Below, piece after piece: positions 29,930 to 51,869 of a DNA stretch of 64,000 nucleotides (positions are counted from its first letter, which is position 1; the number at the start of each line of letters is the position of its first letter). The DNA is taken from NCBI GenBank assembly GCA_020819635.1, contig GCA_020819635.1_4533.1, one strand, 5' to 3'. The translations under genes and the position numbers were made by a program. The notes beneath the pieces were generated by a model that saw only the letters and a list, made by a program, of their open reading frames with translations, searched no databases and had not been told where the DNA came from. The stretch comes from Escherichia coli. GTDB taxonomy: Bacteria; Pseudomonadota; Gammaproteobacteria; Enterobacterales; Enterobacteriaceae.

Positions 29930-30133
29930 TTACTCATTTCTACCTCCTCCGATGCTTTGTGCAGTACCATCCCAAGCCATTAGAATATTTGCCAATAGTT
30001 CACGAGGCTCTTTAAACCAAACTTCCATTTCATCAAGAATCTCGTCCGTGTCGTAAGTATAACCTGGAACACCAAGTTCCCATTTCTTAATATAACTTTC
30101 TAACCAATGGTGATAATTCTTAACCCCATTCAT
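29930..30133 (-). CDS. hypothetical protein
   Basis: 67-aa ORF. Confidence 0.4.
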   Translation of the reverse strand: MNGVKNYHHWLESYIKKWELGVPGYTYDTDEILDEMEVWFKEPRELLANILMAWDGTAQSIGGGRNE

Positions 30134-30458
30134 ACTGTGCTACCTTTTCTTTTACCCAATCTACGCGATCTTTGTCATAATGTTGAGTGCCAAGAAAAAG
30201 ACCGTTGTGGAAGCTTTCAGCACCGAAAGGATAAATTGGATCTAAACCATCTTCTTCAAATAACATTTTTAATCTGTTTGATGTAGATTTCTTAGTTTCT
30301 GAATCGTAGCTTGTGGTTATAAGCCAATCTTCCAAACAACGACATAACCCTTGACGAGAATCCCAAGGAAAAACACAATCTCCAACAGGAGCTTTTTCCG
30401 CCCATTCTAACCAGCCTTTAAAAAAGTTATACAGTATGTAGTCTTCAGTGTAATACAT
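30120..30458 (-). CDS. paralog-family protein, member 7 (unknown function)
   Basis: shares GLC...PF...R(V/I)xWVK(D/E)(R/K)(I/V) motifs with six other ORFs; AAGGAGG RBS. Confidence 0.55.
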   Translation of the reverse strand: MYYTEDYILYNFFKGWLEWAEKAPVGDCVFPWDSRQGLCRCLEDWLITTSYDSETKKSTSNRLKMLFEEDGLDPIYPFGAESFHNGLFLGTQHYDKDRVDWVKEKVAQYEWG

Positions 30459-30510
30459 TAGCGCCTCCTTTACATATACAATAACACCCCCGCAGAACGG
30501 GGTGCAACTG

Positions 30511-31122
30511 TTATTTAATCTGTTTGAAAATTTCGTTTGGAACGGTACCGTTTAAAATACCTTCTACGATCTCTTGTGCAGATGTGTAAGAGAGTCCAAA
30601 AGAAGCTACGCCTAAAATTGCCTCCTTCAAAGGATCTGGTAAGGGTTCAAAATTACCTGCAACAAATCCTCCCGCACAAGCAGCACCTTCATCATCCCAG
30701 AAAACAACTGCTACTTCATTACCATGTGAAGTTGTGCGATGTGCAAGAACTTCAACTTCAGTACCTTCTTTAGGAATAGAATAAGAGGTGTCCCAGGAGT
30801 ATCTTTCCAAATCGGGGACAAAAATAACCTTCTCACCTACTGGCGGCAGTTCACAACGATAATACCAAGAATTTTTTTCGTTCATTGTTTTATTTTCCTC
30901 CACGTCTTCAAAAGTAACGATCCAATCATAACCGTAAGAAAACGGATATTTTAGATCTAAAGAATAAGTTTGACCTAGATCGTCCTCAACAAGAACCATC
31001 CTGTCAAAGTTTGCGATGTTAGGATTATGTTTAATGACAGGGTATGTTTCCCCTACAGTAAATTGTCCCAAATGGTAAAGTTCGTCTCTCCAAGTGATTT
31101 TGATACGAGTGCATTGAATCAT
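30511..31122 (-). CDS. hypothetical protein
   Basis: 203-aa ORF. Confidence 0.5.
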   Translation of the reverse strand: MIQCTRIKITWRDELYHLGQFTVGETYPVIKHNPNIANFDRMVLVEDDLGQTYSLDLKYPFSYGYDWIVTFEDVEENKTMNEKNSWYYRCELPPVGEKVIFVPDLERYSWDTSYSIPKEGTEVEVLAHRTTSHGNEVAVVFWDDEGAACAGGFVAGNFEPLPDPLKEAILGVASFGLSYTSAQEIVEGILNGTVPNEIFKQIK

Positions 31123-31126
31123 AAAA

Positions 31127-31399
31127 TTACCCCCAAGAAATAGCTATGTATCTTACAATGTTTGCACTGTCTAAAGCCATGTTTGCACCACACCCACGCT
31201 CGCGCCAGTAACTAACAATACCTTCACAAATACTCTCTTGCATCTTCTTATCATTTGGCATTTCTAGTATAAGACTTGGGTTGTGGATGTTTATGTTATA
31301 ATATCCTTCCTCTGCGGCTTGAGCTACCAATTTACTCACTTTTTCAAAGTACGGGGAATTAGTGGCATCTGCCATTGTTTTTAAGGTTTGTCTATCCAT
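31127..31399 (-). CDS. hypothetical protein
   Basis: 90-aa ORF. Confidence 0.45.
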   Translation of the reverse strand: MDRQTLKTMADATNSPYFEKVSKLVAQAAEEGYYNINIHNPSLILEMPNDKKMQESICEGIVSYWRERGCGANMALDSANIVRYIAISWG

Positions 31400-31764
31400 T
31401 ATTCTGCCTCATCATAAAAGAAATCCAACTCTTGTTCCAGTTGTTTAACTCGATCTTTAACCCACTGTATACGTTTTTCATTAAACATGCAACGTTTTTC
31501 CTTACACTCTTGCTCAAAAGATTTTGCTGTGTTAAACGGGAAAGTTGTATCTAAACCAGCGTTTTCAAAACTGGCTAATTGCATACCATAAACAGAATAT
31601 GCTAAAGAATGCTCGGCCCGAAATTCATCGCTTATATACATACGTAGACCTCGGCATAAGCCAACATCAGCGTAACCACTTTCTCTTGGAAAGAGACGGA
31701 GGTGTTCTAACCAATTATTATAGAAATCTAAAAGAATCCTCTTACACTTCAAATCGATTGTCAT
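31399..31764 (-). CDS. paralog-family protein, member 6 (unknown function)
   Basis: LLDFYNNWLEH...GLCRGL...TFPFN...KRIQWVKDRV; start set at MTIDLK after GAAGGAGAAA RBS. Confidence 0.55.
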   Translation of the reverse strand: MTIDLKCKRILLDFYNNWLEHLRLFPRESGYADVGLCRGLRMYISDEFRAEHSLAYSVYGMQLASFENAGLDTTFPFNTAKSFEQECKEKRCMFNEKRIQWVKDRVKQLEQELDFFYDEAE

Positions 31765-32164
31765 AAAAAGTTTCTCCTTCATCGAACAAGTTGGCAAGAT
31801 TGTTCACGGCAATCTGGGTGGAAAGAAGACAACTGTTTGCAGACACATAAGCACGAGCTATTTTGTAAACATAGGCTTTCGTATTACAATTGTCTAGGAT
31901 CGGAAGACTTTCGTCGATAGCATCTATAACACTAAACATCACATCTAAAACTTTAATGGTGAGTGTTGTATTTGTATCTTCGTAACCTTTTTCAATCCGA
32001 CCTGAATAGAAAGCATAGTCCTCAACAGTTCGTCGTTTAAACTGGCGCATAAAATCGGAACCATCTGTAGCAGAATTGAACAAATTTTCAAAAAATACGT
32101 CCCATCCGGCAAAAAGGGCTGACAGCATGATTAAGTGATCTACAGATTCATTTTCTTGTTTCAT
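31742..32164 (-). CDS. hypothetical protein
   Basis: 140-aa ORF. Confidence 0.5.
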   Translation of the reverse strand: MKQENESVDHLIMLSALFAGWDVFFENLFNSATDGSDFMRQFKRRTVEDYAFYSGRIEKGYEDTNTTLTIKVLDVMFSVIDAIDESLPILDNCNTKAYVYKIARAYVSANSCLLSTQIAVNNLANLFDEGETFYDNRFEV

Positions 32165-32172
32165 ATCCTCTC

Positions 32173-32844
32173 CTATTTAATGTTCAGTCTGGCACACAAA
32201 CGAGAAACAGTTTTAGCATCCCATTTACCACCACGTGCTGTTGCTATTTTCTTACTATTGAATTTTTCAGCAATAGTTTTGTAAGGTGTATTTAAATCTC
32301 TAAGGATCTCCAAGCGTTCACGGAATGTCTCTGCAAAAGCGTCTGCTTTAACAGAATTGTATTCCATTTTTCCTTTTCTACGTGCAGCGGCAGTTTTAGG
32401 ATTAGCACTGCCTAATAAAACACCTTTGCTTTTTGCTACAGCAAGACCCTTTTTAATACGATCAGCAATACCTCTAACTTCTTGTTCAGCCAGAACAGAC
32501 AGAAGCTGTATAACCATTTTATCTGCGTCTGGCATGATGGCTATCTTAACATCGATCATTTCTAGAAGAGTTGCTACAGAGGCGTTGTTACGACCCAAGC
32601 GGTCAACTTTAGCTACCAATAAAGTTGCTCCGGTAGCTTTACACATTTCAACCGCTTTAACCAGTTCCTTACGTTGCTTCCAATCGCCCTTGCCCGAATA
32701 GTATTCAGAAAATTGACCAATAACTTCCGCATCAGGCACAGAGTCTAAGAAGTAACGGATATCATTCTCTTGGCTCTCCATACCATATTGTGCCTCACCT
32801 TTTTTCTGTTTAGAAAGACGACTGTAAACAACAAACTTTTTCAT
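32173..32844 (-). CDS. small serine recombinase (resolvase/invertase family)
   Basis: catalytic VYSRLSKQ (Ser nucleophile), VDRLGRN, C-terminal HTH ATARGGKWDAKTVSRL; own TTGACA-17-TAAAGT promoter upstream. Confidence 0.75.
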   Translation of the reverse strand: MKKFVVYSRLSKQKKGEAQYGMESQENDIRYFLDSVPDAEVIGQFSEYYSGKGDWKQRKELVKAVEMCKATGATLLVAKVDRLGRNNASVATLLEMIDVKIAIMPDADKMVIQLLSVLAEQEVRGIADRIKKGLAVAKSKGVLLGSANPKTAAARRKGKMEYNSVKADAFAETFRERLEILRDLNTPYKTIAEKFNSKKIATARGGKWDAKTVSRLCARLNIK

Positions 32845-32914
32845 AACCACTCCTAAACCATTGCTGTATTCTCACTTTACAAAACGAATAAACACTTGTC
32901 AAGGTATTTATTAT

Positions 32915-33127
32915 TTACAGCCATTCTACTCTTAAGCAGTATTCCTCGACATGTTGTTTACGCTTGTTTTTGTCTATGTAAGTGTATTCAACAAATGTCC
33001 CAAGATAGTCCTTGTCTACATTGTGTGGGCTATTGATTGGACATTTAGTACGACAAACCCGTTGCCACTGACGAAGAATTACGGTTTTGTTTTTAGGATC
33101 AAAGGGATGAGGGTAATGTACCTTCAT
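32915..33127 (-). CDS. hypothetical protein
   Basis: 70-aa ORF. Confidence 0.4.
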   Translation of the reverse strand: MKVHYPHPFDPKNKTVILRQWQRVCRTKCPINSPHNVDKDYLGTFVEYTYIDKNKRKQHVEEYCLRVEWL

Positions 33128-33451
33128 TCACGCCCCCTGTTTTAGTCGAAAAATATTTTGAATAACTAGAGATGTATAGTTATCACCTAGTCCCATAAGT
33201 TGTACTTCCAAGTTTCGAATATCTTCCACCGTAGGAGGATATGTTGGTAAAAATGCTTGAGCATTGCCAGATCCAACCTCATTGCTGTAAGCAGTTGTAA
33301 AATTGTAAGATACAAAACATGAAACACCTTTTTGTCGGTACCCGATTAATCGACGAATACACCAGATAAGAGCCAAACCTATGAGAACACCTCCTAAACC
33401 AGCTAACAAAAAGGATAAGTTCATAATAGCTTCGTTAACAACTGCTTGCAT
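33128..33451 (-). CDS. membrane protein
   Basis: 107 aa with a hydrophobic helix LSFLLAGLGGVLIGLALIWCI. Confidence 0.45.
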   Translation of the reverse strand: MQAVVNEAIMNLSFLLAGLGGVLIGLALIWCIRRLIGYRQKGVSCFVSYNFTTAYSNEVGSGNAQAFLPTYPPTVEDIRNLEVQLMGLGDNYTSLVIQNIFRLKQGA

Positions 33452-33461
33452 TCTTTTCTCC

Positions 33462-33761
33462 TTAGTTATGTAAACCCAAATGTGCTACAACTTCTCTACG
33501 ATAAGATAACTGCATAGCGATTTTATAGCCAGGATGAAAACCATTTACATCAATGTCATCAAACCAAACCTCAAACGAACCGTGCTTAAGAGTCATTAAG
33601 TTGATATACCATTCGATAATATAATGATCGTCAGCAATACCTTCGATGTAAAATTCTCGGCAACAGTGAGATAGGTCTTCACTTGTTTCACGTTTCCAGT
33701 CCTTGATAGCACCTTTCTCTTTAGCTTCATTCAAAATTTTGATCAGGTCTTCAACTTGCAT
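33462..33761 (-). CDS. hypothetical protein
   Basis: 99-aa ORF. Confidence 0.45.
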   Translation of the reverse strand: MQVEDLIKILNEAKEKGAIKDWKRETSEDLSHCCREFYIEGIADDHYIIEWYINLMTLKHGSFEVWFDDIDVNGFHPGYKIAMQLSYRREVVAHLGLHN

Positions 33762-33814
33762 ATCTATCTCCTTTGTGGTTAATCTTTATATTTTAAATAT
33801 TGTACCGTCTTCGC

Positions 33815-34228
33815 TCAAATAGCCTCTTTCTCTAAAACAACTCTTTGGATCACAACATCTTCAATGTTTGCCAAACAATGACCCAAAGTCAATCCCGCCT
33901 TGAAAGGTGCTTGTAGTTTGGATTCAGCTTCTACGCGAATAGAATGTTCCGCTCCGCACATGGTGTAATCTACACGGTAAACGTTTAAACCTAAGAACAT
34001 AGATTCTTCTTCCTCACAACAAGGATTGAGTTCAGCCCATTCCCAAGCATCTCCTTCTAAAGCAAACGGAGTGTTGTAATTGAAGAAAGTGCAGCGCGGA
34101 TATTCCCCGTTGAAAGAATCTTTCAGCAAAATATACTTCTTACCGTTTGCGTGGAATAGTTCTCCTTTGATAACCTTACCTACAAGGATATCACTGTTAG
34201 TGGAACGGGTGCAAATAAACTTTTTCAT
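33815..34228 (-). CDS. hypothetical protein
   Basis: 137-aa ORF. Confidence 0.5.
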   Translation of the reverse strand: MKKFICTRSTNSDILVGKVIKGELFHANGKKYILLKDSFNGEYPRCTFFNYNTPFALEGDAWEWAELNPCCEEEESMFLGLNVYRVDYTMCGAEHSIRVEAESKLQAPFKAGLTLGHCLANIEDVVIQRVVLEKEAI

Positions 34229-34282
34229 GATTTTCTCCTCTTTGTTTCGATGAGATGATTATGACAAAGACAGATCCTTCTG

Positions 34283-34603
34283 TCAACTATTTATTTCTTC
34301 TGCTACACGTTCTTTTACCCAGTTCACACGATCCACATTCAAGTGACAGCGGCTTTTTTCCGCTTCTAAGGTGTACTTTCCAAAATTACTGTTGAAAGGC
34401 AACACCATAACCAAATCTTTGCGGTAGAACTGCTCATGCATTTCATCCAGTACTGGTTCGTATCGTTCGCTTTCACCCATATCATAAAAATCATAGAGGT
34501 TCGAGCACAAACCTGTGCAACGGGTGAACGGTTCACCTTCAGGAGCACCAGCTTCCAACCATGCCAAATACGTGCGGTAAAATGTTAATAGTTCTTCGCT
34601 CAT
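34283..34603 (-). CDS. paralog-family protein, member 5 (unknown function)
   Basis: FYRTYLAWLEAGAP...GLCSNL...LPFN...CHLNVDRVNWVKERV. Confidence 0.55.
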   Translation of the reverse strand: MSEELLTFYRTYLAWLEAGAPEGEPFTRCTGLCSNLYDFYDMGESERYEPVLDEMHEQFYRKDLVMVLPFNSNFGKYTLEAEKSRCHLNVDRVNWVKERVAEEINS

Positions 34604-34812
34604 TTCCCCTCTCCTTCGTGATAGTAAACCTCAAAAGAATAGTAAGTGAACATGCTCATCGTGACACCTGCCATTTCTGGATCAACGGAAGTGTTGTTAT
34701 ACATGTCAACTACTGCCTGACCCGCTGCTTTGGCATGTGCTGCCGAATCACAGGCACAAACATCTTTCTCCCACGGAAACTTGCCATCATACTTAAGACG
34801 GACAATCCACAT
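34600..34812 (-). CDS. hypothetical protein
   Basis: 70-aa ORF. Confidence 0.4.
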   Translation of the reverse strand: MWIVRLKYDGKFPWEKDVCACDSAAHAKAAGQAVVDMYNNTSVDPEMAGVTMSMFTYYSFEVYYHEGEGK

Positions 34813-34814
34813 GT

Positions 34815-35042
34815 TTATTCCTCCATCTTAAACCATTCAGGGAACACTTTGTGGAAGACACGAGTTGTTTCCAAAAGGAATTCCAATTCTTTTTCCTGAT
34901 CTGTGTCCCAACCATTTATTTTAACACGGTTTGCTAATGCACTTGCACGATGACTCAACTCTTGACAAATCGGATCACGCAAGAATATTGCATCATAAAA
35001 CTGACAAACAGCTTCAAGTTCATACCAATTATAAGCAGCCAC
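34815..35042 (-). CDS. hypothetical protein
   Basis: 75-aa ORF. Confidence 0.4.
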   Translation of the reverse strand: MAAYNWYELEAVCQFYDAIFLRDPICQELSHRASALANRVKINGWDTDQEKELEFLLETTRVFHKVFPEWFKMEE

Positions 35043-35368
35043 TATTCATTCTCCTCTGCAATACGATCTTTCACCCAATTAATCCTGTCCACGTTCAGGT
35101 GACAGGCATCTGCGTCTGACTCTAAAACATATGCATCATAGTTCTCATTGAAAGGGAGTTCTTGACTCAACCCTTTATAGTGGAACTGCGCGTGCATTTC
35201 ATCTGATAAGGTCGTTATAATGGGGTTGTAATTGTCTCTGTGCACATAATCGAACAAGTTGGCACACAAACCGCAATCCCGCCGAAAAGGTTTACCATCA
35301 GGAGCACCAACATCAATCCATGCTAGATAAATTTTATAAAACTCCATCAACCTTGCGCTTGTTTTCAT
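35042..35368 (-). CDS. paralog-family protein, member 4 (unknown function)
   Basis: FYKIYLAWIDVGAP...GLCANL...LPFN...CHLNVDRINWVKDRI. Confidence 0.55.
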   Translation of the reverse strand: MKTSARLMEFYKIYLAWIDVGAPDGKPFRRDCGLCANLFDYVHRDNYNPIITTLSDEMHAQFHYKGLSQELPFNENYDAYVLESDADACHLNVDRINWVKDRIAEENE

Positions 35369-35606
35369 TTAGCCACCTCGTTAGTTTTTCTTGCTCTTTG
35401 TTTGCGCGTTCTAAGTTTCTAAACTTTAAACAAAGGGAACGAGAATCCCTACCCATGCACAAGCTTTCATCTAAGCTGTGCTCCCCAACCAACCAAAGAG
35501 AATATGTTTGAACATCTAACCCATAGTTTCTGTCTTTCCATAATCTCACCCCAAGAACATCAAAAGGCGCTTCCGCGACTAAAGAAAGAAACCGATCTTT
35601 ATTCAT
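35334..35606 (-). CDS. hypothetical protein
   Basis: 90-aa ORF. Confidence 0.4.
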   Translation of the reverse strand: MNKDRFLSLVAEAPFDVLGVRLWKDRNYGLDVQTYSLWLVGEHSLDESLCMGRDSRSLCLKFRNLERANKEQEKLTRWLNENKRKVDGVL

Positions 35607-35668
35607 ATTACACCACCTTGCTCACGTTGATAATGTATGTATACCATACATAAAATAAATGTCAAGGC

Positions 35669-35869
35669 TTATCGACACAGATAGTTGTAACGATCTGCTT
35701 TATCCTCTGCTTCAGCAAAGTCAGCAATCAAGGAAGTTTTGAGTTCTTCCAACTCTTTCACCCAAGAGTCGTAATCGTCCTGTGTTTCTCCAATAGTTTG
35801 GAGAAAACAATCGTCGTAGCCAATAGACATGGCTAACTCGATAATACGTTCCAGTTTTTCTTCCATCAC
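35669..35869 (-). CDS. hypothetical acidic protein
   Basis: 66-aa ORF. Confidence 0.4.
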   Translation of the reverse strand: MMEEKLERIIELAMSIGYDDCFLQTIGETQDDYDSWVKELEELKTSLIADFAEAEDKADRYNYLCR

Positions 35870-36228
35870 TTCTCTCCTTCTACAGACTTCTGTTTAACAT
35901 AAAAGTAAGCACCGCGAGCAAGATACAAATCATGTTCAATATCGCTCACAGGAAAACCATCTGGATTTTTAAAACCATCTTCTACAGCCAAAATGAGAGA
36001 TCGTAAACTAATAGCTAACAACTCCATTTGATCTTGTAGTTTTCTATTTTCTGCATAAAGGTTTTTGCATTTTTGTTCTGCATTTTTCCATTGTTCTAAT
36101 GCATGATCATAGCGGTGCATAAGAATAGCTTTTTCTTGTTCACGCTTAAAAGTTTCTTCACAAATGAAACCCGTGCCTAAACCAGTTTCTTCATCTTTGA
36201 CAAATACTTCAACAAAATCTTTAGACAT
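35866..36228 (-). CDS. hypothetical protein
   Basis: start set at MSKDFVEV after AGGAGA RBS; longer ORF-table version overlaps upstream gene. Confidence 0.45.
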   Translation of the reverse strand: MSKDFVEVFVKDEETGLGTGFICEETFKREQEKAILMHRYDHALEQWKNAEQKCKNLYAENRKLQDQMELLAISLRSLILAVEDGFKNPDGFPVSDIEHDLYLARGAYFYVKQKSVEGEK

Positions 36229-36229
36229 A

Positions 36230-36493
36230 TTATCTCCTATTTGCTTTTGGATACTCCCAACCCTCTGGGAGATCTTCTTTACACATCCACTCAAAAGGCC
36301 AGCGACAATAACTATGCCACTTCCCATCAAGATACAAGCAATCTTCATCTACTGGTCCACAAGGGTTGATAACTACAACACACCCTTTCGCTCGCCAATA
36401 TTGAACTATTTCAGGGTAAAAACAAGAAACGTCGGTCCACTCCCAAATACGCTCATCATTCAAACGATATGCTGCTGGCAATGTTTCTTCCAT
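36230..36493 (-). CDS. hypothetical protein
   Basis: 87-aa ORF. Confidence 0.45.
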   Translation of the reverse strand: MEETLPAAYRLNDERIWEWTDVSCFYPEIVQYWRAKGCVVVINPCGPVDEDCLYLDGKWHSYCRWPFEWMCKEDLPEGWEYPKANRR

Positions 36494-36497
36494 ATTA

Positions 36498-36956
36498 TTA
36501 AACCTCTGTCAAAGAGAAACGCCAATTACGGCTGTCTCCTTCTCCTAAATACCAACAATCTGCAACATTGATTACTTCATAAGGAATACGCCAAGCATGA
36601 ACGAAATCTGGAATCTCTGGCTTATGACTGTAACCATAACGATCACCACTTGAATCTGTTGTAATATAATTAACAAATTCAGGAACATCTAGAGTTTCAC
36701 CTTGATATTGCACACGCTTAAACCCTTCTTCTACCTCCTTTGGCAAACCTTCTACTAGACAAGCAAGAAGTTGAATGTGAGGGCAAGTGAAGTCTTGTCC
36801 TGGATAACGTGAACGAATATCGTCTAACAATGCGATCACAGCATCTAATAATTCTTTATAATCCTCGTATCTTACAAATGTCCCTTCTGTAGGGTCATCT
36901 TTACATAGAGGCCAAGCATCACTCCAATTTACACCATAATGTTTAACTTTAGACAT
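36498..36956 (-). CDS. hypothetical protein
   Basis: 152-aa ORF. Confidence 0.5.
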   Translation of the reverse strand: MSKVKHYGVNWSDAWPLCKDDPTEGTFVRYEDYKELLDAVIALLDDIRSRYPGQDFTCPHIQLLACLVEGLPKEVEEGFKRVQYQGETLDVPEFVNYITTDSSGDRYGYSHKPEIPDFVHAWRIPYEVINVADCWYLGEGDSRNWRFSLTEV

Positions 36957-37043
36957 TTAAACTCCTATTCATAAACTAAGCTACCTAAAAGAAATATACA
37001 CACAGTGAAAAATATGATTTCGAACATCTTACGGTGAACTCTC

Positions 37044-37442
37044 TTAGTGTTGAGTACAATCAGCTTCTAGAGTAAGAACATTTGTTATTGTTTTATCATT
37101 TTTAAGAAATGCAAACCAAGCTAAAGTGTCCCGATATTCTGTGCGTAGCATAACCACTTCAGTGGTGCCAATAAACTGTTGTGAACCGTACATAGCACTA
37201 CCATCTTTACTCTTTTCTCCTGTGTGTTGCAGAACACCACTCATCAAAGCACCACCTGAATTTTTAAGGATAAAGGAGTTATCTTTATTAATGACAACAG
37301 AAGCCATTTTCTTAGGACCAGAAATCACTTCACCTTTCAGATTTTTAACAACCACATCTGACACACACTCATAAACTTGAGACGCATTTGCTGTTCCAAG
37401 TGATGCGATGAGTAACAAGAAACCTACGATGATCTTTTTCAT
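37044..37442 (-). CDS. secreted protein with signal peptide
   Basis: MKKIIVGFLLLIASLGTANA signal-peptide-like N-terminus. Confidence 0.5.
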   Translation of the reverse strand: MKKIIVGFLLLIASLGTANASQVYECVSDVVVKNLKGEVISGPKKMASVVINKDNSFILKNSGGALMSGVLQHTGEKSKDGSAMYGSQQFIGTTEVVMLRTEYRDTLAWFAFLKNDKTITNVLTLEADCTQH

Positions 37443-37537
37443 ATAAACTCTCCTCTTTATTTACCCGACGCGCCCCTGTTGGGCGGAAAGGGTTGTACGC
37501 AAAATTTTTAGCTCCAATCGTCGGGTGTCCCGACTCC

Positions 37538-37744
37538 TTACGCTTTTAATGTTTTAACAGAATGACAAGCTTTGCAAACAATAACCGGAACAAGTTCATC
37601 TCCATTATCTGCATAAATCACTGTTTTCTTCATTCTGCCACCACATGAACAATACTCTGTATGATCTGCTGGAATATTAAATATTCCGTAATCACTTTCA
37701 TACTGTTTCTTACATACGGACACTGCTTTTGTAAAACAAGACAT
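37538..37744 (-). CDS. small Cys-rich protein
   Basis: CKKQ...CSCGG...CKACH. Confidence 0.4.
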   Translation of the reverse strand: MSCFTKAVSVCKKQYESDYGIFNIPADHTEYCSCGGRMKKTVIYADNGDELVPVIVCKACHSVKTLKA

Positions 37745-37746
37745 AC

Positions 37747-37968
37747 CTACTCCGCAAGAACATTCACTTCGTCAGAGAAAAATACGTAATCACAACCTTC
37801 CCAAACATCTTCTTCAAACCACTCCCATCCCTCAACTTTGGACATTTCTTCTATCGTAACAAAGAATGTTGTCATATCATCACTAACAAGATGTGCTTCA
37901 ACAATAAAAGGAATCTGAACATTCTCAAAACCAACATAACCCAATACATCACAAACTCTAATTTTCAT
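37747..37968 (-). CDS. hypothetical protein
   Basis: 73-aa ORF. Confidence 0.4.
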   Translation of the reverse strand: MKIRVCDVLGYVGFENVQIPFIVEAHLVSDDMTTFFVTIEEMSKVEGWEWFEEDVWEGCDYVFFSDEVNVLAE

Positions 37969-37969
37969 A

Positions 37970-38170
37970 TTATGCTCCTTTGTAGATTATGTTGGTGCGT
38001 TCACACTCTGCCACCAGCAAGCGATTCGCAATGTTATCCATAGGAACATCAATCTCTACGCTCCAGGCATTGATATACACTTCTTCAATTTTTGCTCCAA
38101 ACGTTTGTGCGATCAAGGCAACAGCCCCGGCATATTCAAGTTTAATCTCAATTACCATTTTGCACCTCAA
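37970..38170 (-). CDS. hypothetical protein
   Basis: 66-aa ORF. Confidence 0.4.
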   Translation of the reverse strand: MRCKMVIEIKLEYAGAVALIAQTFGAKIEEVYINAWSVEIDVPMDNIANRLLVAECERTNIIYKGA

Positions 38171-38172
38171 GG

Positions 38173-38409
38173 TTATTTATCTTGCTTGTATCTTACAAGG
38201 CGATCACACTCCAGGTCAAGAAATTTCTCCGCATTTCGTTCATGTTTGAGCACAATACATTGTTCTTTCCAGTCTGTAGCTCTTTGCTGCGCTGCTCCTG
38301 GGTCAAAATCCCAAAGCCATGCTGCGAAAAGAACAACTATAACAATTACCAAGAAACTAAACACTATTGGCATTGCACATCCTCCTGTGTAGCATGATCT
38401 TTTACCCAT
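38173..38409 (-). CDS. small membrane protein
   Basis: hydrophobic IVFSFLVIVIVVLFAAWLW segment. Confidence 0.4.
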   Translation of the reverse strand: MGKRSCYTGGCAMPIVFSFLVIVIVVLFAAWLWDFDPGAAQQRATDWKEQCIVLKHERNAEKFLDLECDRLVRYKQDK

Positions 38410-38678
38410 TTTATACGGGCAGCATTCAAATGCAATAGCCCGTTTCTTTGTGCAAAATCATATTTAAACCAATCTCCGTCATCAAACGGGTATTCTTCAG
38501 ACAATCCTGCCTCACGGAATTGCATTTGCATTTCATAATTTAGATCATCGTAACCACCAGTCCAAAGGTAGAGGCAACTACATAATCCTTTATCATGCCA
38601 GAAAGGATTATTATCTGGAGCACCAGCTAATAGCCAGTTATGATATGCCTGATAAAATTCTTTAAGTTCCTCTGACAT
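38364..38678 (-). CDS. paralog-family protein, member 3 (unknown function)
   Basis: FYQAYHNWLLAGAP...GLCSCL...YPFD...ARIKWVKDH. Confidence 0.55.
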   Translation of the reverse strand: MSEELKEFYQAYHNWLLAGAPDNNPFWHDKGLCSCLYLWTGGYDDLNYEMQMQFREAGLSEEYPFDDGDWFKYDFAQRNGLLHLNAARIKWVKDHATQEDVQCQ

Positions 38679-38870
38679 TTAACCTCCTGTATACAGTGTT
38701 GAAAGATACGCAGCAAAAGCATTCTCGGCTGTTTTCACCTCCTCTTCAAGATCTTCACGCTCTGCTGGCGTTAATGCATTCCGCACAGCAGCGTCTGCTT
38801 CTCGGATTTTTCTTACTAAACGTGAAACATCTTTCAATTGTTGAAAAGTAGCCATAATCTTTCTCCTGTT

Positions 38871-39155
38871 TTAGTGAGTATCACGCCATTCGGCAATCTC
38901 TTCGGCTAAACGATCACAAGAATCGAAAGCCACTTTACCTTTAGTCTGATTTTCATATCGTACTTCCTTCAATGCGAGTAATGCATTCACCAGATTATCA
39001 ACACCTTGATCATCCAGTGCAATAACATCAAAGTTAAACCCTGTATCAGTTGGGACTTTACGTTTTATGGTGTAATAGTCTCCTTCATGACGTTCAACAT
39101 CCGCGTATGGGTAACTGCTGTTTGGATCATGTTTTACGCGAATAGATGTTTTCAT
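38871..39155 (-). CDS. hypothetical protein
   Basis: 94-aa ORF. Confidence 0.45.
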   Translation of the reverse strand: MKTSIRVKHDPNSSYPYADVERHEGDYYTIKRKVPTDTGFNFDVIALDDQGVDNLVNALLALKEVRYENQTKGKVAFDSCDRLAEEIAEWRDTH

Positions 39156-39170
39156 GTTTTGTTCTCCTCT

Positions 39171-39404
39171 TTAATCAAACCAGTTGTATTCGGAAGGGTA
39201 ACGAGCGTAGTTTGGCTTATACCCCAGCCTTTTCATCTTAACAGACATACGAGTGAAGCCAAAGGTTGTTTTGCCCTTAGACATAAACTTCTTCCCACTC
39301 TTCATTGGCTTCTTAGGGTCTTTGATCGTCTGGTGTAACGCTCGCGCAAGCCACAAAGTGTATGCACTCGGCACTTGATTAACTTTCATCTTATTACCTT
39401 TCAT
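39171..39404 (-). CDS. small basic protein
   Basis: start set at MKGNKMKV after AAGGAGG RBS; K/R-rich. Confidence 0.45.
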   Translation of the reverse strand: MKGNKMKVNQVPSAYTLWLARALHQTIKDPKKPMKSGKKFMSKGKTTFGFTRMSVKMKRLGYKPNYARYPSEYNWFD

Positions 39405-39414
39405 CGAAACCTCC

Positions 39415-39642
39415 TTAGTGAACTTCGTGCCAAGTGCCAAACTCTTCTGCTGATACTTTAGGAACGGCATGAGTTTCTCGATATTTGTTTAAAGCTTTCT
39501 CAATGGCTGTAGCAAAAACATCTTGTGATTTATAAGGCATATAATAAGAGCGTCCCATGTATGCCACTGCATCACGTAATTCTTCTGCTTGCTCTTGTGT
39601 AACTGTCAATGTGATAGTAACCATTATTTCACCTCCGACCAA
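39415..39642 (-). CDS. hypothetical protein
   Basis: 75-aa ORF. Confidence 0.4.
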   Translation of the reverse strand: MVGGEIMVTITLTVTQEQAEELRDAVAYMGRSYYMPYKSQDVFATAIEKALNKYRETHAVPKVSAEEFGTWHEVH

Positions 39643-39923
39643 TCAATAGTGATCCACTCGTATGCCCCGTTCAGATCCATTTCTTTATAAACAATAAGCC
39701 CACGCTCACGAAGAATTGCTACTGCTTCATCCATCCACTTCACCTGATTGTAGATCTCCCCTGGGTGGGTAGGGGAATTATCCAGACCAAAATCAGATGG
39801 CGTGAAATTTCTTGAAGAGTTTCCCGCTCGTGCTTCAGCAAAACATGTCTCGATCACTTCTTCAACAGGGAAGTTGAAGGAAGCTTCTTTTGCAATACGG
39901 CGTAACTGTTCGGTCAGATTCAT
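39624..39923 (-). CDS. hypothetical protein
   Basis: 99-aa ORF. Confidence 0.45.
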   Translation of the reverse strand: MNLTEQLRRIAKEASFNFPVEEVIETCFAEARAGNSSRNFTPSDFGLDNSPTHPGEIYNQVKWMDEAVAILRERGLIVYKEMDLNGAYEWITIDWSEVK

Positions 39924-39950
39924 CTTATTCTCCTTTCGTTGTGCGAAACA

Positions 39951-40388
39951 TTATAACAGATCTAATGCTTTCAACTCTTCTTTTAATGATTCAGGCAGGT
40001 CACATTCAATGTCAATCAGAGATAACAAGTGACCAACAATGCCTTCCAGATGTTGATACTCACTATAACTTATAAATTCAGAATTGTAAACAGAAACATC
40101 CTTAGTTTCTTTCACAACTTCCCCCGCAGACACGCACATAAAAAAGTTACGCTCTCCGCGAGCTAACAATATCTCCCAACTCCTGAACGGATACTGTCCA
40201 GCTTCAATAATATCCCCGCTGTCCAATAAAGTCAATGAGCAAACAGACCCTGATTCACTAACATCTTCGACGCGGAAACAAGACCCTTCAATCAAAGCTG
40301 CCATTTTGAAATTTTCATCAGAGATCATAGAGAAAGCTTCACAGGCAGCTTTACTTTTGAAACAGTAAACAGCATTAACTTTAAACAT
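39951..40388 (-). CDS. hypothetical protein
   Basis: 145-aa ORF. Confidence 0.5.
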   Translation of the reverse strand: MFKVNAVYCFKSKAACEAFSMISDENFKMAALIEGSCFRVEDVSESGSVCSLTLLDSGDIIEAGQYPFRSWEILLARGERNFFMCVSAGEVVKETKDVSVYNSEFISYSEYQHLEGIVGHLLSLIDIECDLPESLKEELKALDLL

Positions 40389-40400
40389 AACATTCCCCTT

Positions 40401-40859
40401 TTAAACAAAAGATACACCGATGGTAGCAACAACCATACGTTTATAAACTTCAACCTCTTCTGTAGGATTAGCCATTTTATGCTCTGCTGCTTCTTTCAAA
40501 GCTTCTTCATAACTTTGAGATCCAGAGATACAGGTGTCACCAGTCATTACAACATACCACTCTTCTTTTGTTGTATCAATAGGTTCTTCTTGGGGTTTTC
40601 CACGACCACCACGAACACCACCGTCAACAAAATAATCTATATGAGCAGAATTGATTACGTAACGATCCCCATCACCAGCAGTGATAATACCGTCTCTCAT
40701 ACCTATTACAACCATTGACAAGATATTACCATTTGCATCAGTGCTCAACACCTCGAAAAAATTCTCTCCAATGATAGCAGCAATACTGTTATCAAAGGTA
40801 GAATATAGTCGCATATAATCTTCATCCTGGAAACGGTAGACATGACCTTCTTTAAACAT
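40401..40859 (-). CDS. hypothetical protein
   Basis: start set at MFKEGHV after AAGGAG RBS. Confidence 0.5.
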   Translation of the reverse strand: MFKEGHVYRFQDEDYMRLYSTFDNSIAAIIGENFFEVLSTDANGNILSMVVIGMRDGIITAGDGDRYVINSAHIDYFVDGGVRGGRGKPQEEPIDTTKEEWYVVMTGDTCISGSQSYEEALKEAAEHKMANPTEEVEVYKRMVVATIGVSFV

Positions 40860-41046
40860 GATGTGCTCCTTCTTGTTCAAGAGTAAAAGGAATGATTTCA
40901 CCGTAGCTGTATCGCATAGCATCAACTTCTGCTTCTGCACGTTGTGCTAATTCCAGTGTTGCACAGATTTTATATGGAGTTGTTGTGCACTGACTCCAAC
41001 CTGGGGTGTTCTTAGTCACTAAATATACAGTAGTTCCTTTATTCAT
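40852..41046 (-). CDS. hypothetical protein
   Basis: 64-aa ORF. Confidence 0.4.
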   Translation of the reverse strand: MNKGTTVYLVTKNTPGWSQCTTTPYKICATLELAQRAEAEVDAMRYSYGEIIPFTLEQEGAHHV

Positions 41047-41500
41047 AACTTTCTCCTCCTAGTTCATCATACCATTTCAAAGCGTCTTTTGGAAGCATAC
41101 CAAAATCTTCTTTTAGTTCTTTTTCAATCTCTTCTTTCAGTTCATTCAACACTTGTAGTTGGCGTATTTTCTTCCGTAACAAAGCTTCCTGCTCACTGTT
41201 GTTTGGCGTTACTTCGTTTGCTGTTACCATTACATATCCTGTCGGAGAGCAAGGAAGATAATCATCAATATTTTCTAAAGCATAACGATAATTGGAGTCC
41301 AGGAAGTTTACATGCACTCGATCACATCCAAACAACGTGGCACGAAATACTTCATAACGAGTTTCAGATAAGATATGTTGCACACAGACAATACCTACAT
41401 CGTTTTGCACTGCACAGGTTACATTCAACAAACTTGAGTGTTCTTTGACATAATCTACAACACATTGCACATGCGCTTCTAGTATAGATAGTTGTCTCAT
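41039..41500 (-). CDS. hypothetical protein
   Basis: 153-aa ORF. Confidence 0.5.
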   Translation of the reverse strand: MRQLSILEAHVQCVVDYVKEHSSLLNVTCAVQNDVGIVCVQHILSETRYEVFRATLFGCDRVHVNFLDSNYRYALENIDDYLPCSPTGYVMVTANEVTPNNSEQEALLRKKIRQLQVLNELKEEIEKELKEDFGMLPKDALKWYDELGGESYE

Positions 41501-41736
41501 TTTCTACCTCCCCATAATGCTAACATTTTATTGAAAATGGAAACGCGTCGTGCGCGAGATGCTAATGTTATATTATCTTCCTCGGCACGTTGCAAGTAGC
41601 GATCACACTTAATCAAAGCTTGCGTCTTCTCTTTTAAAGTTTGCGTGTTCATCCACTCTGTCTCAGAGTAGTGATTGTAGAAGTATTCTGTATCCAGAAC
41701 ATTCATAGCTATCTCATTATCTACTGGAAGGATCAT
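41497..41736 (-). CDS. hypothetical protein
   Basis: 79-aa ORF. Confidence 0.4.
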   Translation of the reverse strand: MILPVDNEIAMNVLDTEYFYNHYSETEWMNTQTLKEKTQALIKCDRYLQRAEEDNITLASRARRVSIFNKMLALWGGRK

Positions 41737-41954
41737 TGTACCTGCTCCGCATCCTTCAAGTTTTTAATGAAGTAACGACCAACCGGATTCCCTCGGAAGT
41801 ATTCGTTAATGAAATCGATAACACACGTTTCACTGCCTGTCACAACGGACGGCTTAAAGTTTTGGAATTCTACAGCTACACGGCTGGCTTTAGCCAGTGC
41901 TTGCACACGTGTAGGATTAGTCAAGAACATTGTGACAGTTTTCAAATTCTTCAT
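41733..41954 (-). CDS. hypothetical protein
   Basis: 73-aa ORF. Confidence 0.4.
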   Translation of the reverse strand: MKNLKTVTMFLTNPTRVQALAKASRVAVEFQNFKPSVVTGSETCVIDFINEYFRGNPVGRYFIKNLKDAEQVQ

Positions 41955-42003
41955 TTCATCTCCTCATTGGCTATCTGTTATGTCATCCATTATACAAACA
42001 TCT

Positions 42004-42372
42004 TTATTCAATGCAAGCATTATTTGCATCTTCAATGCGATCTTTCACCCACTGAATACGTAACTCGTTGGTATGACACGCCAAGTTTATACACTCTGAA
42101 AGGTAATCCATGCAATCTGCATTGAACGGAAGATTGTAGTCCAGCCCTGCACATGTAAATTGTTTCCTCATTTCATATTTCAAACGGTCTAACAAATGAT
42201 CACGCCATCTTCTATCTTCTTCTCTAGTTGTCTCACCAACAAAATCATCTATATAGTCTACCAGACAACCACATAAGCCACTCGTTGTGCGATTCATTGC
42301 AGGATAGTTGGCAATCCATGCTTTATAGAAGCGAAGCAATGTTGCACTGCTCAACGGAATACTATTTGTCAT
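42004..42372 (-). CDS. paralog-family protein, member 2 (unknown function)
   Basis: FYKAWIANYP...GLCGCL...LPFN...CHTNELRIQWVKDRI. Confidence 0.55.
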   Translation of the reverse strand: MTNSIPLSSATLLRFYKAWIANYPAMNRTTSGLCGCLVDYIDDFVGETTREEDRRWRDHLLDRLKYEMRKQFTCAGLDYNLPFNADCMDYLSECINLACHTNELRIQWVKDRIEDANNACIE

Positions 42373-42706
42373 TTTTCTCTCCTTCGTAATCTTGAATTCT
42401 ATCTAGCACCCATTGTATACGATGTTTATTTTTATGGCAAATATGTTTTTTATGTTCGAAGGTGTATTCCTCATAACCACCTTCATTAAACGGGAAATTG
42501 TAATCCAATCCTGCACTAATAAACTGTGATTTCATCTCCTGTTGTAGACGAGGTAACAGTTCATCAGGATATGTTCCCTCTACATACTTAATCAAACATA
42601 TGCACAAACCACTCGTTGTGTGACCTTCTACCTCACCAGCAAGCCAAGCTTTGTAAAACTTCATTAGACGTAAACTACTCAACGGAACATTTTTACTCTT
42701 TTGCAT
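42362..42706 (-). CDS. paralog-family protein, member 1 (unknown function)
   Basis: FYKAWLAGEV...GLCICL...FPFN...CHKNKHRIQWVLDRI. Confidence 0.55.
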   Translation of the reverse strand: MQKSKNVPLSSLRLMKFYKAWLAGEVEGHTTSGLCICLIKYVEGTYPDELLPRLQQEMKSQFISAGLDYNFPFNEGGYEEYTFEHKKHICHKNKHRIQWVLDRIQDYEGEKNDK

Positions 42707-44250
42707 GACAATCTCCTCTCATCGTTAGCCATCTTTCATGGCAATCATCAATCACCAACATCATACGATCAATCTTAGGGAATTACAATCGAATTATCAT
42801 AGGGGATTCCTATCAATTATCCCATATATACCGATTATTTTTGACACCCCACTCTTGTATAAAAAGTAACCCAAAATATCTACGGGGAGAGATTATTTCG
42901 ACACACCCTGTTTCATGGCAATCGTGGCAAGAATATCTAATAGAATCAATATCATATGGCAATAATCATGGCGTATACGTAAGAAGTGCTTAACGCGAAT
43001 TTTCGGGCCGTCAGGTCCACGCAGCGACAATTCCCAAATATCATGAGAATGAGAATAATTATCATTCGTATTCAATGACTTATGCAAGGCTCATGCCAAC
43101 ATAGCGACAAGGTGGGCCACTTGATTATAAATCACACAAACACTTATTTATCAATGGTTTGGCAACTTCATCATATGACGGAACAATGTCAACCGATCCT
43201 GCTCATGACAAGCAGACTATTATTTATATGAGAATGATTATTATTTAAACGTTTATTAACATAAAAGCCAAAATAAATCAAGAATTTTCTGATTTTATTT
43301 ACGTTTAAGAGAACGTGCTCAACATATCGCTACGCGATAGTATTCGCCCCCAAAAGATTAGCCTTTATTTTCTTATATGTTTATACACTATGTGCACACT
43401 ATGCAACCTGTCGCTATTCGCTCATGTTGCTACGTGCAATTATTCATCTTGCTAATGATTTCATCTTGTAATTACCACAATGATTATTGTTATTGCGCTA
43501 ATGTTATGATCTTGGTAATTACATATAATGCTAATAATAAGCCAGCGCAATAAGTGTAAGCGTCATTACGCTTGCAATTATTGCAAGCTACGCAGTAACA
43601 AGAAATAACCGTCACCGATGGTTATGATTGTTGGGGTGTAGTTGGCTTATTATTAGCTCGCTATGTGTCCGGCATAGCGTGCTAATGATGACTCTATGAA
43701 TGATTCGTTTTGTAATGATTTCATTCAGGCACTATTATGGCAATAGTTATTATTTTAATGGTTTCGTTTGTTATTGTTCGTTAGTTGGTTGTTTTGTCGT
43801 GTTATCGTTATCCTGCTTAGTATTCATCATGGTTTGATTGTTTGTCGTTATCAATCATCTTGCTACTATTCCTTTGATTATGATTAGTTTGCTTATTGTT
43901 TTACGTTGTTTGTTGGTTAGTTGTTGCGAACTATTATCAACATTATAGTTATGCGCTTATATTGCATAGATAATCATGGATAGATGATAATGGTTATCAT
44001 TGCACTAGAAAGGAGGTAAAAGGGTGTTTTTGATGGTTTGTTGTTGGTTGTTGATCGATTTTAACCGCTCTAAATAGCTCTCTAACAGTTTGTTACCCTG
44101 GGAGGTATGGTTATTCGTTTAATGGTTGATTAGCTCGATACCGCGATTTATTCAGTTTTGTTCTGTGTCGGTTTTTCATAGGCGAAAGCTATCAACATTA
44201 TTCGGGCAAAAAGAAAGGGCGCTTGATGCGCCCCCTTATTTTGTTGTCGA
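42707..44250. other. non-coding AT-rich island with short palindromes and strand-skewed GT-rich tract
   Basis: no ORF of 60 aa or more over about 1.2 kb; palindromes TTGCAATTATTGCAA, CGCTATG...CATAGCG; three copies of the AGAAT(C/G)A..TCAT motif also found at 55.7 kb. Confidence 0.5.
44214..44245 (-). terminator. intrinsic terminator
   Basis: minus strand GGGCGC-atcaa-GCGCCC followed by TTTCTTTTT. Confidence 0.55.
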
Positions 44251-44670
44251 TTATAACGCTTCATAGATTGAGTAGATCCGGTTTGCCAGGTCATTACGAA
44301 AGCGGAATTTTTCATCACGTTTGATCATCAGATCCTTAAAACCGCATTCTTTCAAGGCTTCATTAACTTTATGGCGGCAAACGTTCATATTATCCTGCGC
44401 GTCACCAATAAACTTATTGCTGTGATGCATTGCTTTGATCTCTTCCTCTAATACCAGGGCAACTACACGGACCGGATCAAGCTGATATGCGGTAACATCC
44501 ATGCGGCATTGTAAACGGCTTTTAACATCGTTTACCGGATATACTGCAACCTCTTCCCCGTCAACGTTCACGATAACCAATTTACCATCGATTTCGAAGC
44601 CTTTGGCGGCGCTACCGTGACAAAAAGCGTTATCGAAGGAGTAAGCTGGATTATTTGATTTAATGTTCAT
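44251..44670 (-). CDS. hypothetical protein
   Basis: 139-aa ORF. Confidence 0.5.
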   Translation of the reverse strand: MNIKSNNPAYSFDNAFCHGSAAKGFEIDGKLVIVNVDGEEVAVYPVNDVKSRLQCRMDVTAYQLDPVRVVALVLEEEIKAMHHSNKFIGDAQDNMNVCRHKVNEALKECGFKDLMIKRDEKFRFRNDLANRIYSIYEAL

Positions 44671-44781
44671 GGTGTTGTCCTTTGTTTCGTTTCGTTGTTT
44701 GCTGCCAGTGAGTTAAATATAATATAACGCCGATCCCCTGTCAATAGGGGATAGCGCATTATTTACATTTCTTTACGTTAA

Positions 44782-44810
44782 AGGGCGCTTAGTGCGCCCC
44801 CTTGTATAAT
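44782..44810 (-). terminator. intrinsic terminator
   Basis: GGGCGC-actaa-GCGCCC hairpin with flanking T-run. Confidence 0.5.
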
Positions 44811-51778: not shown

Positions 51779-51799
51779 AATCTTTAATCTCTCTGTTGT

Positions 51800-51859: not shown

Positions 51860-51869
51860 ACTGTTTTTA

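What the first reader, a model, noticed from the sequence alone, without database searches (positions are those of the whole stretch)
30120..42706. Seven-member paralogous family of about 105-120 aa proteins spread over 12.6 kb
ORFs at 30120-30458, 31399-31764, 34283-34603, 35042-35368, 38364-38678, 42004-42372 and 42362-42706 (all minus strand) share an N-terminal FYxxYLAW(L/I)xxGAP segment, a central GLCxxL motif, (L/Y/F)PF(N/D), and a C-terminal C(H)xNxxR(I/V)xWVKDR(I/V) block, with divergence in between. Seven diverged copies in one phage region points to repeated duplication and diversification, which is typical of host-interaction or anti-defence proteins. I do not recognise the family. 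This is my leading candidate for an undescribed system in the window.
Basis: seen in the sequence. Interest (0 to 1): 0.8.

Follow-up and report, generated by a model that had tools for sequence, protein, structure and literature searches.

The report
Seven-copy uncharacterised phage early-protein family
A 150-kb E. coli phage carries seven diverged copies of a small helical protein found in many phages, including N4, whose function is untested and whose predicted fold matches no solved structure; I infer it acts on the host early in infection.

Summary
Seven minus-strand genes (104-122 aa) at the stated coordinates are homologous. They are the only sizeable paralog family in the window, and the phage's only copies.

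The window is a Phapecoctavirus, identical over the 13 kb compared to Escherichia phage vB_EcoM_3A1_SA_NWU. All seven match PHROG 2510 (function unknown). Pfam, NCBIfam, PADLOC and PDB sequences give no significant match.

The family is large: 1,909 clusters in a 1.84-billion-protein library. It includes the third early ORF of an N4-species phage and Burkholderia phage JG068 gp5. It is usually single-copy in early or left-end regions.

Copy number is 7-9 in Phapecoctavirus and 2 in phi92 and W70. Each copy has an ortholog in phAPEC8 under purifying selection (dN/dS 0.02-0.23). Only two pairs look like local duplicates. No partner gene or fused domain was found, so this is a stand-alone domain, not a system.

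Function is inferred, not shown. The proteins are probably autonomous early host-directed modulators, with a constant core and hypervariable surfaces. Anti-defence is plausible but untested. The proposed Cys/His metal site is not supported.

The parts
42362..42706 (-). Family copy 1 (114 aa). First gene after the ~1.5-kb non-coding left-end region. Overlaps copy 2 by 11 nt.
   Evidence: ORF; phrog_2510 E 2.8e-26; family HMM E 4e-41; SD AGGAG at -11; ortholog in phAPEC8 98% id, dN/dS 0.15; segment absent from phi92.
42004..42372 (-). Family copy 2 (122 aa). Carries a ~15-residue insertion in the variable H2-H3 region. Nearest paralog is copy 1.
   Evidence: E 7.8e-26; 45% id to copy 1, E 6e-31; dN/dS 0.23.
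38364..38678 (-). Family copy 3 (104 aa). Its nearest relative is a copy in the Vequintavirinae phage W70, not a paralog in this genome.
   Evidence: E 8e-29; 99% id to phAPEC8 ortholog, dN/dS 0.02; no reciprocal best hit in phiWec188.
35042..35368 (-). Family copy 4 (108 aa). Closest to the family consensus and used as the reference for residue numbering and for structure model 1.
   Evidence: E 3.4e-32; E 2.5e-47; AF2 pLDDT 95.6, five helices; dN/dS 0.12.
34283..34603 (-). Family copy 5 (106 aa). Nearest paralog is copy 4 (51% id).
   Evidence: E 1.3e-30; E 1e-39 to copy 4; dN/dS 0.05.
31399..31764 (-). Family copy 6 (121 aa). Divergent: has Met in place of the H/Y at the H90 position, and has a C-terminal extension.
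   Evidence: E 2e-26; dN/dS 0.06; no reciprocal best hit in phiWec188.
30120..30458 (-). Family copy 7 (112 aa). The most divergent copy (25-33% id to the others) but predicted to have the same five-helix fold.
   Evidence: E 1.6e-26; E 4.5e-34; dN/dS 0.09; AF2 pLDDT 95.3, pTM 0.89, helices in the same order.
42707..44250 (.). AT-rich (36% GC) non-coding stretch directly upstream of the gene block. It corresponds to the left-end and terminal-repeat region of phi92. This is context for the 'left-end, probably early' inference and is not part of the family.
   Evidence: no substantial ORFs; weak homology to phi92 positions 249-554 including the DTR; 97% identical to phAPEC8; GC 0.36; GenBank record position 1 = window ~43319; short scattered repeats; terminator-like hairpin at 44214-44236.

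Best explanation
The seven genes encode members of a widespread, stand-alone, roughly 100-aa all-helical phage domain (PHROG 2510; includes the N4 gp3 equivalent and JG068 gp5). They are small, soluble and mostly acidic, and they are encoded in the first ~13 kb after the presumed left genome end.

Most likely they are made early in infection. Each probably acts on its own as a modulator of a host component. A constant scaffold is kept in every copy: an aromatic core plus an invariant Cys35 and Arg95, with near-invariant Asn92, Glu57, Gln61 and His/Tyr90. Two hypervariable surface segments would give each copy a different specificity: the H2-H3 loop (residues 43-56, with indels) and helix 4 with its flanks (75-89). 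On this reading Phapecoctavirus has assembled a panel of seven to nine specificities for host takeover or counter-defence.

Shown here: homology, copy number, fold prediction, conservation pattern, purifying selection, gene turnover, early or left-end location of homologs, and the absence of partners or fusions.

Inferred, not shown: early expression in this phage, a host target, and any anti-defence activity.
For: - Real, maintained genes: SD motifs; 1:1 orthologs in phAPEC8 with dN/dS 0.02-0.23.
- Early or left-end placement of homologs: the third ORF of the early region in an N4-species phage, where ORFs 15 and 16 are the RNAPII subunits (N4 early region described in PMC4496689). N4-like JWDelta JJJA_0008 lies between the gp2-like and gp14/RNAP1-like genes. 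JG068 gp5 lies between annotated host promoters and a terminator. phi92 gp006 and gp010 lie within 4 kb of the annotated left DTR. The window block maps to that same end.
- Autonomous domain: no fused Pfam domains, only 2-3 tandem copies in 18 of the top 150 representatives; no conserved neighbour across 17 loci.
- Scaffold plus variable surfaces: across 119 members, C35, P72, F73 and R95 are invariant and 11 more positions are >=90% conserved, while residues 43-56 and 75-89 have near-maximal entropy and indels.
- Same fold in the consensus-like copy and in the most divergent copy.
- Lineage-specific expansion and turnover: 7, 7 and 9 copies in three Phapecoctavirus genomes against 2 each in phi92 and W70 (from partial loci plus whole-record tblastn), and 1 in most other phages.
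- Acidic: pI 4.5-5.3 for six of seven copies.
Against: - No experiment or homology links any member to a host target or to a defence system. PADLOC, PDB, Pfam and the literature searches were all empty.
- Invariant polar residues (Cys35, Arg95) across about 1,900 clusters from phages of very different hosts fit a shared ligand or chemistry better than a set of unrelated protein targets.
- Gene-average dN/dS shows no arms-race signature.
- Early timing in this phage is inferred from position only. The promoter scan was uninformative (67 sites found against 57 expected).
Confidence: 0.4

Rival explanations
1. Shared-chemistry model. The domain binds or transforms one class of small molecule, for example a nucleotide-derived immune signal, or it uses a reactive thiolate. 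The site would be built from Cys35 in the first turn of helix 2, Arg95 and Asn92 at the N-terminus of helix 5, His/Tyr90, Glu57, Gln61 and the many conserved aromatics. The paralogs would then be tuned to different ligands, or simply add dosage.
For: - Cys35 and Arg95 are 100% invariant in 119 diverse members. N92, E57, Q61 and H90 are 85-94% conserved. About 12 aromatic positions are conserved.
- Cys35 lies in the first turn of a helix in both models. From general knowledge, that geometry lowers thiol pKa.
- Tandem 2-3-domain forms would suit an oligomeric binder.
- The broad host range of the carrier phages fits a target that is universal.
Against: - S4, N74 and N92 sit immediately before helices, so they may simply be N-caps. 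Cys35, Arg95 and Glu57 could be a buried structural network.
- The His position tolerates Tyr, Phe or Met (copy 31399).
- A 100-aa helical bundle is small for an enzyme.
Confidence: 0.25
2. Phage-internal role. The proteins would be accessory factors for the phage's own early-to-middle transcription, replication or genome entry, analogous to N4 gp1 and gp2, which sit beside the N4 homolog.
For: - Location next to transcription cofactors in N4-like phages (PMC4496689).
- Location downstream of DNA polymerase or helicase genes in Vequintavirinae and Drexlerviridae.
- Strong purifying selection.
Against: - Seven to nine diverged copies, variable presence, and two copies absent from phi92 are not what is expected of core machinery.
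- The family occurs in phages with entirely different transcription and replication strategies: Autographiviridae, Schitoviridae, Drexlerviridae and large myoviruses.
- Acidic pI and no significant DNA-binding fold.
Confidence: 0.15
3. Winged-helix or HTH-like DNA-binding regulators.
Against: - The models have no beta-wing.
- Six of seven copies are acidic.
- No Pfam HTH signal in 119 members.
Confidence: 0.05
4. Functionless passengers: selfish or neutral 'moron' ORFs that have accumulated in a recombination-prone accessory region.
For: The region is mosaic between phiWec188 and this phage, and copies are gained and lost.
Against: - dN/dS 0.02-0.23.
- Intact SD motifs.
- High-confidence fold.
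- Deep conservation across about 1,900 clusters.
Confidence: 0.05

Closest known systems
PHROG 2510 (with weaker links to phrog_6418, phrog_27059 and phrog_2176), all 'unknown function'
   Same: All seven proteins match over their full length at E 1e-26 to 1e-32. This is the same family.
   Different: The PHROG entry carries no function. The seven-fold expansion, the fold prediction and the early or left-end association are not part of that catalogue entry.
Third early-region ORF of phage N4 (AC3HA13_030 in the N4-species phage 3HA13, equivalent to N4 gp3), JG068 gp5, phi92 gp006 and gp010, JWDelta JJJA_0008
   Same: Homologs carrying the same motifs (GLC, PFN, H.N..R..W[VI]), of similar size and in early or left-end positions.
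   Different: Single-copy in N4, JG068 and JWDelta, and two copies in phi92, against seven here. None has a described function in the papers I could search (PMC4496689 discusses only gp1, gp2, gp15 and gp16).
Multigene families of small host-takeover or immune-evasion proteins near the genome ends of large DNA viruses (for example the SPO1 host-takeover module, or the terminal multigene families of poxviruses and ASFV). This is an analogy from general knowledge.
   Same: Clustered, diverged paralogs of small proteins near a genome terminus, with copy-number variation between close relatives.
   Different: No sequence or fold relationship. A host-directed function is demonstrated for those families and only inferred here.
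Phage nucleotide 'sponge' anti-defence proteins (Tad1, Tad2, Acb2). This is a functional analogy from general knowledge.
   Same: Small early phage proteins with conserved aromatic and polar ligand-site-like residues; oligomeric or tandem forms exist.
   Different: No fold match to any PDB entry. No ligand evidence.

Membership tests
PHROG 2510 | Significant full-length match to the family HMM | tested here: met
   All seven match at E 1.6e-26 to 3.4e-32, covering about 100 residues each.
Any Pfam-A or NCBIfam family | Score at or above the curated cut-off | tested here: not met
   No hit above cut-off for the seven copies or for any of 119 diverse members; the best was E 5e-4, in a single member.
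Known defence-system proteins (PADLOC-DB) | HMM match to a PADLOC model | tested here: not met
   Only one spurious PifA hit at E 0.012.
   Only C35 is invariant. H90 is 85% conserved, with Tyr or Phe substitutions (Met in copy 31399). C89 is 44% and C37 13%.
Winged-helix or HTH DNA-binding proteins | HTH plus beta-wing fold with significant structural match; basic DNA-binding surface | tested here: not met
Phage early gene class | Transcription in the first minutes of infection | not testable with these tools
   Only positional evidence is available: homologs in the N4 early region, between JG068 early promoters and a terminator, and at the phi92 left end. The promoter scan of the window was uninformative.
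   No neighbour family is shared across phage groups in 17 loci. Long members consist only of repeats of the same domain.

The most novel reading that the evidence does not exclude
The domain is a previously unseen fold built around an invariant helix-N-terminal Cys paired with an invariant Arg. On this reading it is a new class of phage-encoded thiol-dependent enzyme or small-molecule or immune-signal binder, conserved from N4 to 150-kb myoviruses. Phapecoctaviruses would have diversified it into seven to nine specificities, deployed as the very first genes after the genome end.
Probability: 0.15. Interest if true: 0.85.

Novelty: new variant of a known kind. Interest (0 to 1): 0.55.

Why it matters
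The family is one of the larger pieces of phage 'dark matter' seen here, with about 1,900 clusters at 50% identity. It has no Pfam entry, no solved relative and no published function that I could find. Yet it occurs in the model phage N4 and in therapy-relevant E. coli myoviruses.

A confident new fold, an invariant Cys/Arg pair, early or left-end placement and a 7-9-fold lineage-specific expansion make it a tractable target. Possible outcomes include a new host-takeover mechanism, a counter-defence mechanism or a new ligand-binding module.

Even the conservative outcome would be useful. It would assign a role to hundreds of 'hypothetical protein' annotations, and it would explain why Phapecoctavirus devotes the first genes of its genome to this family.

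Tried and rejected
2. Fused-domain clues. Long members (P0140, P0176, P0051 and others) contain only repeats of the domain, N-terminal hydrophobic segments, or a weak sub-threshold zinc-ribbon-like tail in P0179.
3. Plasmid leading-region association. There was one hit, on a phage-plasmid-like replicon, which was not informative.
4. The HIDEN-SEQ lead. bas54_0140 is an unknown Vequintavirus gene needed against DS-28 (10.1101/2025.11.20.689424). The family HMM finds no member in the corresponding 50 kb of Bas57, a related Vequintavirus, so I rejected the lead. Bas54 itself was not located.
5. Conserved-neighbour analysis. No partner was found.
6. Bacterial-genome scan. Alignments A3 and A2 were too diverse for the tool. 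A4 produced one narrow pattern with 0 confirmed loci, which is only weak negative evidence. The viral-contig scan gave just 4 loci.
7. Promoter scan. It was not above background.
8. Metal-site hypothesis. It is not supported by conservation.
10. Literature searches on phAPEC8, rV5, phi92, N4 early genes, phrog_2510 and Stephanstirmvirinae anti-defence found no description of the family.
Full report
**Observation.** The ORF listing shows all seven minus-strand ORFs at the stated coordinates, at 104-122 aa. For the second ORF an upstream in-frame TTG (31797) is also open, but GenBank and the SD position favour the ATG at 31764. MAFFT of the seven gives 13 invariant columns. The GLCxxL and R..WV cores are in all seven. 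PF(N/D) is in six. The long FYxxY..W...GAP form is in three, and 'CH' is in four. BLASTP detects 20 of 21 pairs (E 1e-5 to 1e-40; 25-51% identity), and this is the only paralog cluster of more than two in a 146-gene map of the window. An HMM of the seven finds exactly these seven among 659 six-frame ORFs, with the next best at E=1.4. Every copy has an SD-like motif 8-14 nt upstream of its ATG.

**Where we are.** The region is 100% identical to Escherichia phage vB_EcoM_3A1_SA_NWU (OR062524.1; Stephanstirmvirinae, Phapecoctavirus) and about 95-96% identical to phAPEC8 and many relatives. All seven genes are annotated 'hypothetical protein'. Window position ~43,319 equals position 1 of that record. 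The left end of phi92, including its annotated 343-bp direct terminal repeat, maps in reverse orientation to window ~42.8-43.1 kb, and phi92 gp001/gp002 map to 40.9-41.6 kb. The minus-strand block starting at 42,706 is therefore the first gene block after the presumed physical left end, and the seven copies lie in the first ~13 kb. phi92 lacks exactly the segment (about 42,059-42,790) that carries the first two copies. The rest of the 150-kb genome has no further copy.

**What the family is.**
- All seven match phrog_2510 (unknown function) at E 1e-26 to 1e-32, with weaker hits to three other PHROGs of unknown function.
- Nothing significant is found in Pfam, NCBIfam, PADLOC or PDB sequences, either for the seven or for 119 diverse members.
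- A word-indexed search found 42 relatives, all unnamed or 'hypothetical'.
- An exhaustive hmmsearch of 1.84 billion representatives found 1,909 clusters at E<=1e-3 and 968 at E<=1e-10. Most are 95-125 aa. Eighteen of the top 150 carry two or three tandem copies of the domain.
- Longer members have no other recognisable domain.
- tblastn finds the family in 255 phage records: Stephanstirmvirinae, Vequintavirinae, Schitoviridae (N4-like), Autographiviridae, Drexlerviridae, a jumbo Xanthomonas phage, and phages of Rhizobium, Achromobacter, Delftia, Ralstonia, Burkholderia, Erwinia and Klebsiella.
- It was found on only one plasmid, which resembles a phage-plasmid.
- A narrow pattern scan of 100,044 bacterial species genomes confirmed no locus, which is weak negative evidence.

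**Timing and position of homologs.**
- In the N4-species phage 3HA13 the member is the third ORF of the left-end early region. ORFs 15 and 16 are the RNAPII subunits, so this is the equivalent of N4 gp3. The N4 review PMC4496689 describes that region as transcribed by the injected virion RNAP.
- In N4-like JWDelta the member lies between the gp2-like and gp14/RNAP1-like genes.
- In JG068 it is gp5, between annotated host promoters and the early terminator.
- In phi92, gp006 and gp010 lie within 4 kb of the left DTR.
- In Drexlerviridae and Vequintavirinae it sits among small ORFs next to replication genes.
- Early expression in this phage is therefore inferred, not shown. The sigma-70 consensus scan was not above background.

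**Conservation pattern** (119 members).
- Invariant: C35, P72, F73 and R95.
- At least 90% conserved: L7, F10, Y11, W17, G33, L34, F62, L67, N92, W98 and V99.
- Also strongly conserved: S4, Y14, F28, R30, N37, E57, Q61, Y80, E83 and H90. H90 is replaced by Tyr or Phe in 9 of 119 members, and by Met in copy 31399.
- Positions 43-56 (with indels; copy 42004 has a ~15-residue insertion) and 75-89 are near-maximally variable.
- S4, N74 and N92 immediately precede helices in the model, so they may be N-caps. C35 sits in the first turn of helix 2, and R95 sits in the first turn of helix 5.
- I could not access the coordinates, so I do not know whether these residues form a pocket.
- A classical Cys/His metal site is not supported, because only one Cys is invariant.
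- Six of the seven copies are acidic (pI 4.5-5.3; family median 5.4). None has a signal peptide or a TM segment.

**Evolution.**
- HMM census gives 7 copies here, 7 in phAPEC8 and 9 in phiWec188 (same genus). It gives 2 in the fetched part of phi92 and 2 in the fetched part of W70. tblastn gave two places in each of those whole records, and 1 in most other phages.
- All seven copies have reciprocal-best orthologs in phAPEC8 with dN/dS 0.02-0.23, indistinguishable from neighbouring genes (0-0.5).
- Against phiWec188 only 4 of 7 have reciprocal best hits, within a generally mosaic region.
- In a 142-sequence distance analysis the seven copies span the whole family. Only 42004/42362 (adjacent and overlapping) and 34283/35042 are mutual nearest paralogs. 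The nearest relative of 38364 is the W70 copy. Copies 31399 and 30120 are about 33-36% identical to everything (consistent).
- The expansion is therefore a mix of a few local duplications and old or independently acquired lineages, maintained by purifying selection and reshuffled by gene turnover. It is not a recent burst of diversifying duplication.

**Not a system.** Across 17 loci from seven phage groups, no same-strand neighbour within 1.5 kb is shared beyond close relatives. The surrounding genes are all PHROGs of unknown function, apart from a serine recombinase.

**Interpretation.** The best-supported reading (confidence about 0.4) is a stand-alone early accessory domain with a constant scaffold and two hypervariable surface segments. 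Phapecoctavirus would deploy it as a panel of specificities against host components, for takeover or counter-defence.

The main rival (about 0.25) is a shared chemistry or ligand centred on the invariant Cys/Arg pair. That fits the invariance across hosts better, but it has no structural precedent.

A phage-internal role (about 0.15) is disfavoured by the copy-number variability and by the family's presence in phages with unrelated replication and transcription strategies. DNA binding and 'junk' are unlikely.

No experimental information exists in the literature I could search. The one tempting lead, bas54_0140 against DS-28 from HIDEN-SEQ, is probably not a family member.

**Verdict.** This is a real, well-defined, uncharacterised and widespread phage protein family. 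It is catalogued only as a PHROG of unknown function and has a confident fold with no solved relative, and it is unusually expanded at the left end of this phage. It is a worthwhile experimental target. It is not a multi-gene system, and the anti-defence label is still a hypothesis.

Noticed in passing
window 32173-32850 (-): This 225-aa ORF matches DNA invertase / serine recombinase families (phrog_125 at E 1e-32; phrog_95). In the identical GenBank record it is annotated 'methionine ABC transporter ATP-binding protein', which is probably a misannotation. phAPEC8 notes it as a 'putative site-specific recombinase', and phi92 has a DNA invertase in the equivalent area.
   Followed up: partly
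window 39951-40388 (-) and 40401-40940 (-): These adjacent genes both match phrog_3710 (E 6e-7 and 2e-34). They form a second, two-member paralog pair in the same block, which BLASTP missed.
   Followed up: partly
window 42707-44250: A ~1.5-kb AT-rich (36% GC) non-coding stretch with scattered short direct and inverted repeats. It is 97% identical to phAPEC8 and weakly homologous to the phi92 left end including its DTR. [quoted passage not shown] The corresponding Bas57 gap gave no BLAST match to this window, so equivalence of the two regions is not established. It may hold the terminus, an origin or early promoters.
   Followed up: partly
window 44214-44237 and 44780-44803: Two copies (92% identical) of a GC-rich hairpin, AAAGGGCGCTT(G/A)(A/G)TGCGCCCCCTT. 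The first copy scores as a bidirectional terminator-like site. They flank ORF 44251-44670, and a near-consensus sigma-70 promoter (TTGACA-17-TATATT) lies at 44744-44716 (-).
   Followed up: no
window 37044-37442 (-): A 132-aa ORF with an N-terminal signal-peptide-like sequence (MKKIIVGFLLLIASLGTANA) among otherwise cytoplasmic-looking small early-block proteins. It matches phrog_26124 (unknown function).
   Followed up: no
L008 (phi92) 3307-3891; L017 (RHEph02) 3458-4150: Some homologs are longer. phi92 gp010 (194 aa) is a family domain plus a C-terminal extension. Rhizobium phage RHEph02 gp09 (230 aa) also contains the family domain, directly after the single-domain member gp08. Metagenomic representatives carry up to three tandem domains (P0051, 344 aa).
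   Followed up: partly
window ~25.7-26.6 kb: There is a strand switch from a plus-strand block (1-25.7 kb) to the minus-strand small-gene block. The cumulative GC skew peaks at 24-26 kb.
   Followed up: no
window 9047-10039 (+) and 45911-46147 (-): BLASTP links these two ORFs at E<1e-3, a possible shared domain between a 330-aa and a 78-aa protein. I did not examine it further. The plus-strand pair 51630-51953 / 53262-53492 also cluster, but they lie antisense within a minus-strand block and may be spurious.
   Followed up: no
whole window: No tRNA genes (ARAGORN) and no Rfam family at gathering threshold anywhere in the 64 kb. The phage's 11 tRNAs lie outside the window, at record positions 55-57 kb.
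   Followed up: yes
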